From Escherichia coli (GTDB taxonomy: Bacteria > Pseudomonadota > Gammaproteobacteria > Enterobacterales > Enterobacteriaceae), in the NCBI RefSeq assembly GCF_003334305.1, contig NZ_QOWS01000005.1: a stretch of DNA of 64,000 nt. One strand, given 5' to 3'. A program made the translations under genes and the position numbers. The notes under the pieces were generated by a model, which ran no database searches, was not told where the DNA came from, and worked only from the letters and a program-made list of their open reading frames with translations. The stretch's first letter is position 1. Every line of letters begins with the position of its first letter. Shown here piece after piece: positions 29,713-35,658 of this stretch.

Positions 29713-29726
29713 TTGATAACGATCAA
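29713..29726. promoter_or_regulatory. FNR-consensus site upstream of ydhY
   Basis: TTGATAACGATCAA is a perfect TTGAT-N4-ATCAA palindrome, about 200 bp upstream of the ydhY ATG. Confidence 0.7.
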
Positions 29727-29927
29727 TGTTAAGGGCTCAGAATAATCACATTATTTTTTCTCCTAACCATAAAGGATTAGTTTATCGGCGTTAAATCTTT
29801 TCTCATACACTATCGGGTTAGGGAAAATATCTGGTGTTGGGGACAGAGTCAGCAGCGTATTAGTTGAATGCTTAATATCAGGCTGCTGAATTGTCAGCAC
29901 TGTGTTTGCGAAGAGGATGCGAAATAA

Positions 29928-30554
29928 ATGAACCCGGTTGATCGTCCACTATTAGATATTGGCTTAACGCGATTAGAATTCTTGCGTATATCAGGAAAAG
30001 GCCTTGCTGGTCTAACAATTGCCCCTGCGTTACTGTCACTTTTGGGTTGCAAACAGGAAGATATTGATAGCGGCACAGTAGGGTTGATAAATACACCCAA
30101 AGGGGTGTTGGTGACCCAGCGAGCGCGATGCACGGGTTGCCACCGCTGTGAAATCTCTTGTACCAACTTCAACGATGGCTCAGTAGGGACATTCTTCTCC
30201 CGTATCAAAATCCACCGCAATTATTTCTTTGGCGACAACGGGGTTGGCTCTGGCGGCGGCCTGTATGGCGATCTCAACTATACCGCGGACACCTGCCGTC
30301 AATGCAAAGAGCCGCAATGCATGAACGTCTGCCCGATTGGTGCGATTACCTGGCAGCAGAAAGAAGGCTGTATTACCGTCGATCATAAACGCTGTATTGG
30401 CTGTAGCGCCTGTACTACGGCATGCCCGTGGATGATGGCCACCGTAAATACCGAAAGTAAAAAATCCTCGAAATGTGTGTTATGCGGTGAATGCGCAAAC
30501 GCCTGCCCAACAGGGGCGTTAAAAATTATCGAGTGGAAAGATATTACTGTGTGA
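29928..30554 (+). CDS. ydhY: 4Fe-4S ferredoxin-type protein
   Basis: 208 aa with several CxxCxxCxxxCP motifs. Confidence 0.85.
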   Translation: MNPVDRPLLDIGLTRLEFLRISGKGLAGLTIAPALLSLLGCKQEDIDSGTVGLINTPKGVLVTQRARCTGCHRCEISCTNFNDGSVGTFFSRIKIHRNYFFGDNGVGSGGGLYGDLNYTADTCRQCKEPQCMNVCPIGAITWQQKEGCITVDHKRCIGCSACTTACPWMMATVNTESKKSSKCVLCGECANACPTGALKIIEWKDITV

Positions 30555-30574
30555 ATCTTGCAAAGGAAAAAATC

Positions 30575-33391: not shown

Positions 33392-34060
33392 ATGTCCTTC
33401 ACTCGACGCAAATTTGTTCTGGGGATGGGAACAGTAATCTTTTTTACTGGTTCTGCGTCTTCTCTGTTAGCGAACACGAGGCAAGAAAAGGAAGTTCGGT
33501 ATGCCATGATTCATGACGAGTCACGGTGCAATGGCTGTAATATTTGCGCCCGCGCATGCCGTAAAACTAACCACGTCCCCGCTCAGGGAAGCCGTTTATC
33601 GATAGCACACATTCCAGTCACCGATAACGACAACGAAACGCAGTATCACTTTTTTCGCCAGTCATGTCAGCACTGCGAAGATGCTCCGTGCATCGACGTA
33701 TGCCCGACAGGGGCGTCGTGGCGTGATGAGCAGGGGATCGTGCGGGTAGAAAAATCGCAGTGCATCGGCTGCAGTTATTGCATTGGCGCTTGTCCGTACC
33801 AGGTTCGCTACCTTAACCCTGTCACTAAAGTGGCAGATAAATGTGATTTCTGCGCTGAGTCCCGACTGGCAAAAGGCTTTCCGCCCATTTGCGTCAGCGC
33901 CTGTCCGGAACACGCATTGATCTTTGGTCGCGAAGATAGCCCAGAAATTCAGGCGTGGTTGCAGGATAATAAATACTATCAATATCAGCTACCTGGTGCC
34001 GGGAAACCGCATCTGTATCGCCGGTTCGGTCAACATTTGATTAAAAAGGAAAATGTATGA
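33392..34060 (+). CDS. ydhX: Tat-exported 4Fe-4S ferredoxin-like protein
   Basis: Start chosen at MSFTRRKFVLGMG (twin-arginine motif); several CxxCxxCxxxCP motifs. Confidence 0.8.
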   Translation: MSFTRRKFVLGMGTVIFFTGSASSLLANTRQEKEVRYAMIHDESRCNGCNICARACRKTNHVPAQGSRLSIAHIPVTDNDNETQYHFFRQSCQHCEDAPCIDVCPTGASWRDEQGIVRVEKSQCIGCSYCIGACPYQVRYLNPVTKVADKCDFCAESRLAKGFPPICVSACPEHALIFGREDSPEIQAWLQDNKYYQYQLPGAGKPHLYRRFGQHLIKKENV

Positions 34061-34842
34061 ACCCGTCGCAACATGCTGAACAGTTTCAGAGCCAGTTAGC
34101 GAACTATGTGCCACAGTTCACTCCCGAATTTTGGCCGGTGTGGTTGATCATTGCCGGAGTATTGCTGGTTGGGATGTGGTTGGTGCTGGGGCTGCACGCC
34201 TTGCTTCGTGCTCGTGGCGTGAAGAAATCAGCCACCGATCATGGTGAGAAGGTTTATCTTTACAGCAAAGCGGTCAGATTATGGCACTGGTCGAATGCGT
34301 TACTCTTTGTATTGTTGCTGGCAAGTGGGCTGATAAATCACTTTGCGATGGTGGGCGCAACTGCGGTTAAAAGTCTGGTTGCGGTGCATGAAGTTTGCGG
34401 ATTTTTGTTACTGGCATGCTGGCTCGGCTTTGTGCTGATCAATGCCGTTGGGGATAATGGTCACCACTATCGCATTCGTCGTCAGGGGTGGCTGGAACGA
34501 GCGGCAAAACAAACGCGATTTTATTTGTTTGGCATTATGCAGGGGGAAGAACATCCTTTCCCGGCAACAACACAGTCTAAATTTAATCCCTTACAGCAGG
34601 TCGCCTATGTTGGTGTCATGTATGGATTGCTGCCGTTGTTACTATTGACGGGGCTGTTGTGTCTCTATCCGCAAGCCGTGGGAGATGTGTTTCCTGGCGT
34701 AAGATACTGGTTATTGCAGGCGCATTTTGCTCTGGCATTTATAAGCCTCTTTTTTATCTTCGGTCATCTTTATCTTTGCACCACGGGGCGTACGCCACAC
34801 GAAACCTTTAAAAGCATGGTCGATGGCTATCACCGGCACTAA
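34057..34842 (+). CDS. ydhU: Integral membrane b-type cytochrome-like subunit (PhsC/NrfD-like)
   Basis: 261 aa hydrophobic; overlaps ydhX by 4 nt. Confidence 0.8.
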   Translation: MNPSQHAEQFQSQLANYVPQFTPEFWPVWLIIAGVLLVGMWLVLGLHALLRARGVKKSATDHGEKVYLYSKAVRLWHWSNALLFVLLLASGLINHFAMVGATAVKSLVAVHEVCGFLLLACWLGFVLINAVGDNGHHYRIRRQGWLERAAKQTRFYLFGIMQGEEHPFPATTQSKFNPLQQVAYVGVMYGLLPLLLLTGLLCLYPQAVGDVFPGVRYWLLQAHFALAFISLFFIFGHLYLCTTGRTPHETFKSMVDGYHRH

Positions 34843-34845
34843 CGA

Positions 34846-35658
34846 ATGATCATTACACGAGCAGACCTGCGAGAATGGCGTATCGGAGCGGTGATGTATC
34901 GCTGGTTCCTGCGCCATTTCCCACGCGGCGGTAGTTATGCCGATATTCATCATGCACTGATTGAGGAAGGATATACGGACTGGGCGGAGAGTCTGGTTGA
35001 GTATGCGTGGAAAAAATGGCTGGCGGATGAAAACTTCGCGCATCAGGAAGTTTCCTCTATGCAAAAACTGGCCACAGACCCCGGAGAGATACCATTTTGC
35101 AGTCAGTTTGCCCGCAGCGACGATCATGCTCGCATCGGCTGTTGTGAGGATAACGCCCGAATCGCAACCGCTGGGTATGCCGCGCAAATTGCCAGTATGG
35201 GTTATAGCGTGCGGATTGGAAGTGTCGGCTTTAACAGTCACATTGGCAGCTCCGGTGAACGCGCACGGGTTGCTGTAACCGGTAATTCTTCGCGGATAAG
35301 CAGCGCTGGAGATAGTAGTCGGATTGCGAATACCGGAATGCGAGTACGCGTTTGTACATTGGGTGAACGGTGTCATGTCGCCAGTAATGGTGACCTGGTG
35401 CAAATCGCCAGCTTTGGCGCAAACGCCAGAATTGCCAACAGCGGCGACAATGTACACATCATTGCCAGCGGTGAAAATTCAACGGTAGTGAGCACGGGCG
35501 TGGTCGACTCAATTATTCTCGGGCCAGGGGGAAGCGCCGCACTGGCATATCATGACGGCGAAAGAGTTCGCTTCGCCGTCGCCATTGAAGGTGAAAACAA
35601 TATTCGAACCGGAGTCCGCTATCGTCTTAATGAACAGCATCAGTTTGTTGAGTGCTGA
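34846..35658 (+). CDS. ydhT: Uncharacterised protein YdhT with internal repeats
   Basis: 270-aa ORF; central part contains repeated A/S-R-I/V-G/A-N-S-G units. Confidence 0.75.
   Translation: MIITRADLREWRIGAVMYRWFLRHFPRGGSYADIHHALIEEGYTDWAESLVEYAWKKWLADENFAHQEVSSMQKLATDPGEIPFCSQFARSDDHARIGCCEDNARIATAGYAAQIASMGYSVRIGSVGFNSHIGSSGERARVAVTGNSSRISSAGDSSRIANTGMRVRVCTLGERCHVASNGDLVQIASFGANARIANSGDNVHIIASGENSTVVSTGVVDSIILGPGGSAALAYHDGERVRFAVAIEGENNIRTGVRYRLNEQHQFVEC

What the first reader, a model, noticed from the sequence alone, without database searches (positions are those of the whole stretch)
29713..35658. ydhYVWXUT: six-gene oxidoreductase cluster behind a perfect FNR site, substrate unknown
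A consensus FNR palindrome TTGATAACGATCAA precedes a tightly packed operon with 4-nt overlaps or gaps. It encodes two poly-ferredoxins (YdhY, and Tat-signal YdhX), an aldehyde:ferredoxin-oxidoreductase-family catalytic subunit (YdhV), a membrane b-type cytochrome-like anchor (YdhU) and two proteins of unknown role (YdhW, YdhT). The architecture looks like a complete anaerobic respiratory oxidoreductase, and to my knowledge its physiological substrate is still undefined. This is the best candidate in the window for unexplored biochemistry.
Basis: partly seen in the sequence, partly recalled or inferred. Interest (0 to 1): 0.5.

Follow-up and report, generated by a model that had tools for sequence, protein, structure and literature searches.

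The report
E. coli ydhYVWXUT anaerobic oxidoreductase operon

Summary
The window is E. coli chromosome. A perfect FNR box, TTGATAACGATCAA (29713-29726), is unique in the window. It lies 201 nt upstream of six co-oriented intact genes, ydhY-V-W-X-U-T (29928-35658), which are present in all 5,426 complete E. coli genomes.

- YdhY and YdhX: two four-cluster ferredoxins.
- YdhV: AOR-family catalytic subunit.
- YdhU: five-helix cytochrome b.
- YdhW and YdhT: two orphans.

The locus is already characterised. Published work shows FNR occupancy and activation from -42.5, a study of NarL/NarP regulation, Fur dependence, sigma-S preference, and a bis-Mo-MPT cofactor in YdhV. A June 2026 survey still reports no activity or physiological role, so "substrate unknown" is correct.

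What I add:
- YdhY-V-W is the core kept across phyla. X-U is a proteobacterial add-on, and T was found only in six-gene operons (all named ones Enterobacterales).
- Wherever X-U is present, YdhY's Tat motif has lost its second arginine, and YdhW has gained an arginine-rich N-terminal motif.
- YdhW is an acidic tandem winged-helix protein. YdhT is a beta-solenoid.

My best model is a periplasm-facing, quinone-coupled enzyme, probably a terminal reductase. Novelty: already known. Interest is modest.

The parts
29477..29505 (+). Terminator-like hairpin after fumD (ydhZ), which separates the ydhY promoter from upstream transcription
   Evidence: Stem of 12 pairs followed by a T-rich tail. The fumD stop is at 29472.
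29663..29678 (.). Fur box (AATGATAATAAATATC), about -92 from the transcription start
   Evidence: One mismatch to the Fur core. The pattern matches four times at two sites in the window, against 0.12 matches expected. It is a nearly invariant block in the Escherichia/Citrobacter promoter alignment. Published Fur ChIP peak, and a 4- to 14-fold drop in a fur deletion that a ryhB deletion does not rescue (PMC7157518).
29713..29726 (.). FNR binding site, consensus half-sites TTGAT/ATCAA, class II position (-42.5)
   Evidence: unique in the window; 0.08 expected. Conserved across Escherichia and Citrobacter. ChIP-seq peak, -42.5 position and activation in PMC3688515.
29749..29754 (+). -10 hexamer CATTAT; the inferred transcription start is at about 29762
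   Evidence: Inferred from the published -42.5 spacing and the sequence. ACATTAT is conserved in alignment A4. The generic sigma-70 scan did not pick it up, since there is no -35, as expected for a class II activator-dependent promoter.
29764..29779 (.). NarL/NarP-like 7-2-7 inverted heptamer pair, TAACCAT-AA-AGGATTA (+3 to +18)
   Evidence: Two mismatches to TACYYMT-NN-AKRRGTA. It is not above chance as a bare pattern, but the block CCTAACCnTAAAGGATTAG is conserved between Escherichia and Citrobacter.
29762..29927 (+). Leader of about 166 nt (5' UTR), AT-rich
   Evidence: No Rfam match. Folding-energy z = -1.5 and no covarying structure. The last ~40 nt, which include the Shine-Dalgarno GAAGAGGA, are nearly invariant.
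29928..30554 (+). ydhY: ferredoxin with four [4Fe-4S] motifs (WorS subunit). Its N-terminus has a Tat-like motif with a single Arg (LTRLEFLR) and a lipobox (LLSLLGC41).
   Evidence: (NF007382). SignalP 6 calls it TATLIPO with >99 % probability, according to PMC13245402.
30575..32677 (+). ydhV: AOR/WOR-family catalytic subunit (bis-Mo-MPT plus [4Fe-4S]), with no signal peptide. Cys307/310/314/558 and Cys336 are invariant.
   Evidence: (NF007354, 1373 bits). Cofactor and Cys336 ligand from PMC12096430, PMC13328260 and PMC9103625.
32681..33328 (+). ydhW: acidic (pI 4.5) tandem winged-helix protein, the conserved third partner of YdhY-YdhV. PGAP places its start at 32690.
   Evidence: (pLDDT 92.8).
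33392..34060 (+). ydhX: periplasmic ferredoxin with four [4Fe-4S] motifs and a canonical Tat signal (MSFTRRKFVLG...SSLLA). Its closest named family is NrfC, but it scores below the NrfC cut-off.
   Evidence: (TIGR03149, 249 bits against a cut-off of 377.6). Treated as a predicted Tat substrate in PMC7549933. Orthologue N-termini support the start at 33392.
34057..34842 (+). ydhU: five-helix membrane cytochrome b (PF01292). It overlaps ydhX by 4 nt (ATGA).
   Evidence: (helices; His47/77/95/111/166 are 100 % conserved and His223/237 are 96 % conserved).
34846..35658 (+). ydhT: helical N-domain plus a beta-solenoid with a 9-residue period. It has no signal peptide or predicted membrane helix. 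It was found only in six-gene operons; all named ones are Enterobacterales.
   Evidence: 47 clusters in 5.8 billion proteins; pLDDT 93.2.
35670..37274 (-). ydhS (FAD/NAD(P)-binding protein), a convergent neighbour. Its stop codon is 11 nt from the ydhT stop. It is not part of the operon.
   Evidence: ydhS-ydhT is listed as an overlapping-transcription pair in PMC12288877.

Best explanation
This is the E. coli ydhYVWXUT operon.

Transcription (shown by others). FNR bound at -42.5 activates the promoter when oxygen is absent. Iron-loaded Fur is needed for expression, and sigma-S RNA polymerase is favoured in vitro. A published study covers regulation by NarL/NarP; that this is repression by nitrate and nitrite is my recollection, since I could not read that paper.

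Products (domains shown here; assembly inferred). YdhV holds a Cys-ligated bis-Mo-molybdopterin centre and one [4Fe-4S] cluster. It pairs with the four-cluster ferredoxin YdhY. A second four-cluster ferredoxin, YdhX, wires this pair to the di-haem cytochrome b YdhU in the inner membrane.

Topology (inferred). YdhX has a canonical Tat signal and YdhY has a Tat/lipoprotein-type signal. Relatives in Firmicutes are encoded next to their own tatC. The catalytic module therefore most likely faces the periplasm, with signal-less YdhV exported bound to a partner.

Electron path (inferred). The chain quinol - YdhU haems - YdhX - YdhY - YdhV [4Fe-4S] - Mo links the quinone pool to an unknown periplasmic substrate. 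Regulation resembling that of dmsABC and ynfEFGH makes me favour quinol-to-substrate flow, a terminal reductase, at about 55-60 %.

Substrate. It is probably not an ordinary aldehyde.

Accessory proteins (inferred). YdhW is the universal third partner and is most likely an assembly or export escort, or a small subunit. YdhT is a lineage-specific accessory protein.
For: Identity and conservation:
- 100 % identity to annotated E. coli genomes, and the locus is present in all 5,426.
- dN/dS is 0.014-0.13 for all six genes.

Regulation:
- FNR box with published ChIP and a -42.5 position.
- Fur box with published Fur dependence.
- Sigma-S preference.

Domains:
-.
- The YdhV cysteines, including Cys336, are invariant in 18 orthologues down to 48 % identity.
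- The BamB alignment runs through the cluster motif up to the Cys322 region.

Periplasmic orientation:
- YdhX has TRRKF followed by a hydrophobic stretch.
- YdhY orthologues outside Proteobacteria carry canonical TRR[ED]FLK and usually a lipobox.
- fdhD and tatC follow YdhY-V-W in 18 and 14 of 22 non-enterobacterial loci.
- PMC13328260 reaches the same topology.

Membrane coupling:
- The X-U gene overlap, five helices and conserved histidines in YdhU.
- The X-U pair recurs in Telmatospirillum and in metagenomic operons.

Not an aldehyde enzyme:
- The orthologue CsWOR41L was inactive on 46 aldehydes.
- The Cys ligand and missing second-shell residues are reported in PMC12096430.
Against: - No activity has ever been measured for the complex, so both direction and substrate are inferences.
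- YdhY in E. coli has RL instead of the twin arginine, and its uncleaved N-terminus has been detected. Its export is therefore not proven.
- Nitrate repression also applies to hydrogenase 2, an electron-donating enzyme, so the regulatory argument for 'reductase' is weak. This rests on my own knowledge.
- The CsWOR41L test used the L subunit alone, so the negative aldehyde result is not conclusive.
- Complex formation among the six proteins was not tested here; no multimer prediction tool was available.
Confidence: 0.6

Rival explanations
1. The complex runs the other way. It is a periplasmic dehydrogenase that oxidises a low-potential substrate (an aldehyde or similar) and passes electrons through YdhY, YdhX and YdhU to the quinone pool. 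This would serve detoxification or electron donation, much like the periplasmic aldehyde oxidoreductase PaoABC.
For: All characterised AOR/WOR family members except BamB oxidise aldehydes. The structure-sequence hits are AOR and FOR enzymes. A genome-wide chemical-stress screen flagged ydhU under furfural, butanediol and acetate. The electron-transfer chain itself is reversible.
Against: The orthologue CsWOR41L showed no activity with 46 aldehydes. YdhV has the BamB-type Cys ligand and lacks the AOR second-shell residues (Cys336 is invariant). The regulation looks more like that of low-priority terminal reductases.
Confidence: 0.25
2. It is a sulfur-compound reductase (thiosulfate, polysulfide or tetrathionate type), as the PGAP name 'phsC' for ydhU implies. 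YdhX-YdhU would play the roles of PhsB-PhsC.
For: YdhU matches the NCBIfam model named thiosulfate reductase cytochrome b subunit, at 459 bits. YdhX resembles NrfC, DsrO and TtrB. From memory, Partridge et al. 2008 reported altered use of some sulfur sources in ydh mutants; I could not check this.
Against: There is no PhsA-type bis-MGD catalytic subunit; the catalytic subunit belongs to the AOR family. The NCBIfam model matches YdhU over its full length and may simply be named by analogy. No activity data exist.
Confidence: 0.12
3. YdhV-YdhY stay in the cytoplasm in Enterobacterales because YdhY has lost the twin arginine. YdhX-YdhU would then act as a transmembrane electron conduit between the periplasm and a cytoplasmic enzyme.
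For: The YdhY motif is RL, RQ or RK in every X-U-containing operon examined. The unprocessed YdhY N-terminus has been detected. An earlier genomic survey predicted cytoplasmic YdhV in some gut Actinobacteria.
Against: The hydrophobic stretch and the lipobox cysteine of YdhY are strictly retained. The charge distribution fits an N-in/C-out orientation. SignalP 6 scores it as a Tat lipoprotein. A periplasmic YdhX with no periplasmic catalytic partner would have nothing to exchange electrons with.
Confidence: 0.07

Closest known systems
E. coli K-12 ydhYVWXUT operon (b1674-b1669); Class V / clade 41 tungsten-containing-oxidoreductase family (EcYdh)
   Same: It is the same locus: 100 % identical to annotated E. 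coli genomes, with the same six genes, the same FNR site at -42.5, and the same bis-Mo-MPT enzyme YdhV.
   Different: Nothing differs at the level of the locus. This window is simply another E. coli strain, in reverse orientation relative to K-12.
Class II benzoyl-CoA reductase catalytic subunit BamB (PDB 4z3w)
   Same: It belongs to the AOR family, has a bis-metallopterin plus [4Fe-4S], and has a protein Cys ligand to the metal (BamB Cys322, YdhV Cys336). It lacks the AOR second-shell residues (PMC12096430). The profile alignment reaches the Cys region.
   Different: BamB uses tungsten, is cytoplasmic, and is part of an electron-bifurcating BamBCDEFGHI complex working at very low potential. 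YdhV prefers Mo, is coupled to the quinone pool, and appears periplasmic. Quinol cannot drive benzoyl-CoA-type reductions.
Three-subunit periplasmic molybdoenzyme respiratory modules (PhsABC, DmsABC/YnfFGH, FdnGHI)
   Same: The layout is the same: a catalytic pterin subunit, a four-cluster ferredoxin and a membrane quinol-interacting subunit. Tat export and FNR activation also match. The YdhU fold family (PF01292) is shared with PhsC, FdnI and HyaC.
   Different: The catalytic subunit is AOR-family (bis-MPT, no nucleotide), not DMSO-reductase-family (bis-MGD). There are two ferredoxins in series and two extra proteins, YdhW and YdhT, with no counterpart.
CsWOR41 of Cetobacterium somerae (PMC13328260)
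   Same: It is an orthologous YdhY-YdhV-YdhW core (42-59 % identity) with a Tat signal on the small subunit and unknown function.
   Different: It prefers tungsten, has no YdhX, YdhU or YdhT, and is flanked by tupABC, fdhD, tatC and moeA.

Membership tests
AOR/WOR family (YdhV) | AFOR_N and AFOR_C domains | tested here: met
   PF02730 at 1.6e-67 and PF01314 at 3.8e-47. NF007354 at 1373 bits against a cut-off of 868.
AOR/WOR family (YdhV) | CxxCxxxC plus a distal Cys ligating one [4Fe-4S] | tested here: met
   C307, C310, C314 and C558 are invariant in 18 orthologues. They align with the cluster motif of PfAOR and BamB.
AOR/WOR family (YdhV) | Bis-pyranopterin cofactor without nucleotide | not testable with these tools
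   Reported experimentally by Reschke et al. 2019, as cited in PMC13328260 and PMC9103625.
Aldehyde-oxidising AOR sensu stricto | No protein ligand to the metal, conserved second-shell Glu/His, and aldehyde oxidation activity | tested here: inconclusive
   Cys336 is invariant at the position where BamB has Cys322. Loss of second-shell residues comes from PMC12096430. The orthologue was inactive on 46 aldehydes.
Class V WOR (clade 41) | WorL plus WorS with a Tat signal or transmembrane segment, plus at least one further subunit, membrane associated | tested here: met
   YdhV, YdhY and YdhX/YdhU. E. coli Ydh is the named example in PMC13328260.
FNR class II activated promoter | TTGAT-N4-ATCAA centred near -41.5/-42.5 with FNR occupancy | tested here: met
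   The sequence is a perfect match and is conserved. The position and the ChIP peak come from PMC3688515. Transcription was not measured here.
Tat substrate (YdhX) | [ST]-R-R-x-F-L-K motif, moderately hydrophobic stretch, AxA-type cleavage site | tested here: met
   MSFTRRKFVLGMGTVIFFTGSASSLLA. Treated as a predicted Tat substrate in PMC7549933.
Tat substrate (YdhY) | Twin arginine in the n-region | tested here: not met
   E. coli and all Enterobacterales have [ST]RL[ED]FLR. Other X-U-type operons have RQ or RK. Only YdhY-V-W-type operons have RR. The hydrophobic stretch and lipobox are retained, and SignalP 6 still calls it TATLIPO.
Thiosulfate reductase PhsABC (the name given to ydhU by PGAP) | PhsC-type cytochrome b together with PhsA (a bis-MGD catalytic subunit) and PhsB | tested here: not met
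   YdhU matches NF011582 and PF01292. However, the operon has no DMSO-reductase-family subunit; its catalytic subunit is AOR family.
NrfC (YdhX) | Score above the equivalog cut-off, and an NrfD partner | tested here: not met
   TIGR03149 scores 249.3 bits against a cut-off of 377.6. The partner is a PF01292 cytochrome b, not NrfD.
TorD/DmsD/NarJ-type private chaperone (considered for YdhW) | All-alpha TorD fold (PF02613) | tested here: not met

The most novel reading that the evidence does not exclude
YdhV-type enzymes may not be aldehyde oxidoreductases at all. They could be periplasmic, quinol-driven reductases with a BamB-like Cys-ligated Mo/W centre, acting on an unrecognised gut or sediment metabolite. 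YdhW would be a new kind of assembly and export escort. In X-U-type operons its arginine-rich N-terminal peptide (RRRFL-like) would supply or regulate Tat targeting for a YdhY signal peptide that has lost its twin arginine.
Probability: 0.1. Interest if true: 0.7.

Novelty: already known. Interest (0 to 1): 0.3.

Why it matters
The operon is in every complete E. coli genome searched and is under strong purifying selection. Its enzyme class is reported to be the most abundant WOR clade in human-gut proteome databases, although the authors note that figure is biased (PMC13328260). Even so, it is one of the few E. coli respiratory-type molybdoenzymes with no known reaction. Finding the substrate would add a new anaerobic respiratory or detoxifying activity to the best-studied bacterium, and a new chemistry to the AOR family. 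The finding as written does not move that question forward. The comparative details gathered here do give concrete handles for experiments: the YdhY-V-W core, the X-U add-on, the lineage-specific T, and the arginine-motif pattern in YdhY and YdhW.

Tried and rejected
- Riboswitch or structured leader in the 166-nt 5' UTR, for example a Moco riboswitch. There was no Rfam match at E <= 1. The folding-energy z-score was -1.5, and RNAalifold on 21 Escherichia/Citrobacter leaders gave almost no conserved pairs. The conserved CCTAACC and GGTTAGG blocks do not covary. Rejected.
- Exact NarL heptamers (TACYYMT) in the promoter. There are none between 29500 and 29930. Only a two-mismatch 7-2-7 site exists.
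- Sequence-based function for YdhW and YdhT. There were no hits in the Pfam-A release scanned, no PDB sequence hits, and only self-named NCBIfam models.
- YdhW as a TorD-like chaperone by fold. Rejected.
- Substrate hints from gene neighbourhood. The conserved neighbours are only cofactor and export genes (fdhD, tatC, moeA, moaA, tupABC). No conserved transporter or regulator points to a substrate.
- Partridge et al. 2008 could not be retrieved. Details of the NarL/NarP footprints and of the mutant phenotypes are therefore not verified here.
- Alternative upstream start for ydhX at 33341. Rejected, because orthologues begin just before the TRRKF motif.

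
Full report
**Observation.** The window is Escherichia coli chromosome. Region 29400-35900 is 100 % identical to strain H15 and matches all 5,426 complete E. coli genomes; 5,398 of them cover at least 80 % of it. The RefSeq annotation of the identical region lists fumD, ydhY, ydhV, ydhW, ydhX, 'phsC' (ydhU) and ydhT, followed by convergent ydhS.

The sequence TTGATAACGATCAA is at 29713-29726. It is the only perfect TTGAT-N4-ATCAA in 64 kb, against 0.08 expected.

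The six ORFs are intact. The junction spacings are:
- Y-V: +20 nt
- V-W: +3 nt
- W-X: +63 nt
- X-U: -4 nt (ATGA overlap)
- U-T: +3 nt

The packing is therefore tight but not uniformly '4-nt overlaps or gaps'. The FNR box lies 201 nt upstream of the ydhY ATG.

**Proteins.**
- YdhY and YdhX are ferredoxins with four [4Fe-4S] motifs each.
- YdhV has AFOR_N and AFOR_C domains and matches the NCBIfam equivalog at 1373 bits. Its nearest solved relatives are archaeal and bacterial AOR/FOR enzymes and BamB.
- YdhU is a PF01292 cytochrome b with five hydrophobic helices. Its histidines are conserved across 47 orthologues.
- YdhW and YdhT have no hit in the Pfam-A release scanned, and no solved relative by sequence.
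- All six genes are under strong purifying selection, with dN/dS of 0.014-0.13 against E. albertii, E. whittamii and Citrobacter.

**What is already known.**
- FNR. ChIP-seq places FNR on this promoter, with the site at -42.5 and activation (PMC3688515). From this spacing I place the transcription start at about 29762 and the -10 hexamer at CATTAT (29749-29754), which gives a 166-nt leader.
- NarL/NarP. [quoted passage not shown] 2008. Several papers I read cite it, but I could not retrieve it.
- Fur. Fur binds the promoter. In strain CFT073 the operon drops 4- to 14-fold in a fur deletion, and a ryhB deletion does not rescue this (PMC7157518).
- Sigma-S. The promoter is preferred by sigma-S polymerase in vitro. 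It is 19-fold rpoS-dependent in stationary phase in minimal medium (PMC3141248).
- Cofactor. YdhV binds a bis-Mo-molybdopterin cofactor (Reschke et al. 2019, cited in PMC13328260 and PMC9103625).
- Active site. The YdhV clade has Cys336 as a metal ligand, like BamB, and lacks the second-shell residues of aldehyde-oxidising AORs (PMC12096430).
- Function. A June 2026 classification calls the enzyme a Class V, clade 41, membrane-associated WOR. [quoted passage not shown] It also reports that the orthologous L subunit from Cetobacterium somerae was inactive on 46 aldehydes.

So 'substrate unknown' is correct, and the locus is a known one.

**Promoter anatomy from comparison.** I aligned the promoter from 14 Escherichia and Citrobacter species. 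Four blocks are conserved:
- a Fur box, AATGATAATAAATATC, at 29663-29678 (the pattern matches four times at two sites in the window, against 0.12 matches expected);
- the FNR box;
- the -10 element;
- the block CCTAACCnTAAAGGATTAG at +1 to +20.

The last block contains a 7-2-7 NarL/NarP-like inverted pair at 29764-29779. As a bare pattern it is not above chance, but it is conserved and is positioned to block transcription.

The FNR box matches the consensus half-sites in every Escherichia and Citrobacter locus whose upstream region was available. It has one mismatch in Leminorella and one Limnobaculum locus.

A strong hairpin after fumD (29477-29505) insulates the promoter. The leader has no Rfam match and no conserved structure.

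At the 3' end, the ydhT and ydhS stop codons are 11 nt apart with no terminator between them. The pair is listed as an overlapping-transcription 'excludon'.

**Comparative genomics.** A scan of one genome per species with YdhV returned 70 loci.
- Enterobacterales. The named six-gene loci come from Escherichia, Citrobacter, Leminorella, Limnobaculum, Budvicia, Proteus, Brenneria, Symbiopectobacterium and Serratia. All loci with enough sequence keep Y-V-W-X-U-T in order. The exception is a second Citrobacter sp. NCU1 locus with no ydhT match.
- Other phyla. Fusobacteria, many Firmicutes and a Desulfobacterota genome keep only Y-V-W. This core is followed by fdhD in 18 of 22 loci and by tatC in 14 of 22. 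It is often flanked by moeA and tupABC.
- X-U outside Enterobacterales. Contigs from Telmatospirillum and from metagenomes carry Y-V-W-X-U without T.

The operon is therefore built from three nested modules:
- a universal core, YdhY-YdhV-YdhW;
- a quinone-coupling add-on, YdhX-YdhU, in Proteobacteria;
- YdhT, found only in six-gene operons, all named ones Enterobacterales. It forms only 47 protein clusters in 5.8 billion.

The dedicated tatC and fdhD support two inferences: the core is exported, and the metal centre needs sulfuration.

**Signal motifs.**
- In Y-V-W-type operons, YdhY starts with a canonical [ST]RR[ED]F[LM]K motif and usually a lipobox.
- In every X-U-type operon examined, the second arginine is replaced. 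It is RL in Enterobacterales and RQ or RK elsewhere. The hydrophobic stretch and the lipobox cysteine are kept.
- In the same X-U-type operons, YdhX carries a canonical RR signal.
- Also in these operons, YdhW has an N-terminal extension with an arginine-rich motif. Examples are PDLGRRRFLRL, DLSRRRLLLPL and SLRRWLLPL. In E. coli it is degenerate, EAKRQWLQG. No hydrophobic stretch follows it. YdhW in Y-V-W-type operons lacks the extension.
- SignalP 6 reportedly scores E. coli YdhY as a Tat lipoprotein, and its uncleaved N-terminus has been detected (PMC13245402).

I cannot explain this three-way pattern. It may reflect one or a few evolutionary events.

**The two orphans.**
- YdhT. It models at pLDDT 93.2, as a helical N-domain followed by a beta-solenoid with a 9-residue period. 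The beta-helix matches are generic.

**Mechanism.** I commit to a periplasm-facing complex with this electron path: quinone pool - YdhU (two haems b) - YdhX - YdhY - YdhV [4Fe-4S] - Cys-ligated Mo.
- Shown: the domain content, the regulation and the cofactor.
- Inferred: the assembly, the topology and the direction.

Activation by FNR and iron, together with control by NarL/NarP, resembles the regulation of low-priority terminal reductases such as dmsABC and ynfEFGH. That comparison, and the assumption that nitrate represses the operon, rest on my own knowledge. On that basis I favour a quinol-to-substrate reductase at about 55-60 %. The substrate is unlikely to be a simple aldehyde.

The rivals are:
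- a periplasmic dehydrogenase feeding the quinone pool (0.25);
- a sulfur-compound reductase, as the 'phsC' name suggests (0.12);
- a cytoplasmic YdhV-YdhY served by an X-U transmembrane conduit (0.07).

**Verdict.** The feature is already known: a named, experimentally studied operon. The open question it points to is real and long-standing, but the finding itself gives no new handle on it. The comparative observations made here are modest leads. Interest 0.3.

Noticed in passing
window 29928-30050 (YdhY N-terminus) and 32681-32800 (YdhW N-terminus); loci L072, L074, L076, L079-L082: Three things change together. Operons that contain YdhX-YdhU have a YdhY Tat motif without the second arginine (RL, RQ or RK) and a YdhW with an extra arginine-rich N-terminal motif (RRRFL-like, with no hydrophobic stretch after it). 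Operons with only YdhY-V-W have a canonical RR in YdhY and no YdhW extension. The meaning is unknown.
   Followed up: partly
loci L041-L069 (non-enterobacterial): The YdhY-V-W core is followed by fdhD (a sulfurtransferase) in 18 of 22 loci and by a dedicated tatC in 14 of 22. moeA and tupABC are often nearby. No conserved transporter or regulator hints at a substrate.
   Followed up: yes
window 29663-29678: A conserved Fur box lies about 92 nt upstream of the transcription start. Published data show the operon needs Fur for expression independently of RyhB, which is unusual for a direct Fur target. The promoter region is AT-rich (32 % GC).
   Followed up: partly
window 19956-19974: A second near-consensus Fur box pair occurs elsewhere in the window. 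I did not check which gene it precedes.
   Followed up: no
window 35658-35670 and 35864-35881: ydhT and the convergent ydhS end 11 nt apart with no terminator between them. The nearest terminator-like hairpin on the + strand lies inside ydhS. The pair is listed as an 'excludon' in PMC12288877.
   Followed up: partly
window 34057-34842: RefSeq/PGAP names ydhU 'phsC, thiosulfate reductase cytochrome B subunit', although no PhsA or PhsB is present. The name probably over-reaches.
   Followed up: yes
L021 and L039 (Citrobacter sp. NCU1); L062: One Citrobacter genome carries two ydh loci. One is the full six genes, and the other is YVWXU with no YdhT match. A Bacillota metagenome contig (L062) has two YdhV paralogues side by side.
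   Followed up: no
window 34711-35457 (- strand): A 248-aa antisense ORF runs from the end of ydhU into ydhT. It has no support and is probably a by-product of the repetitive, GC-rich beta-solenoid coding sequence.
   Followed up: no
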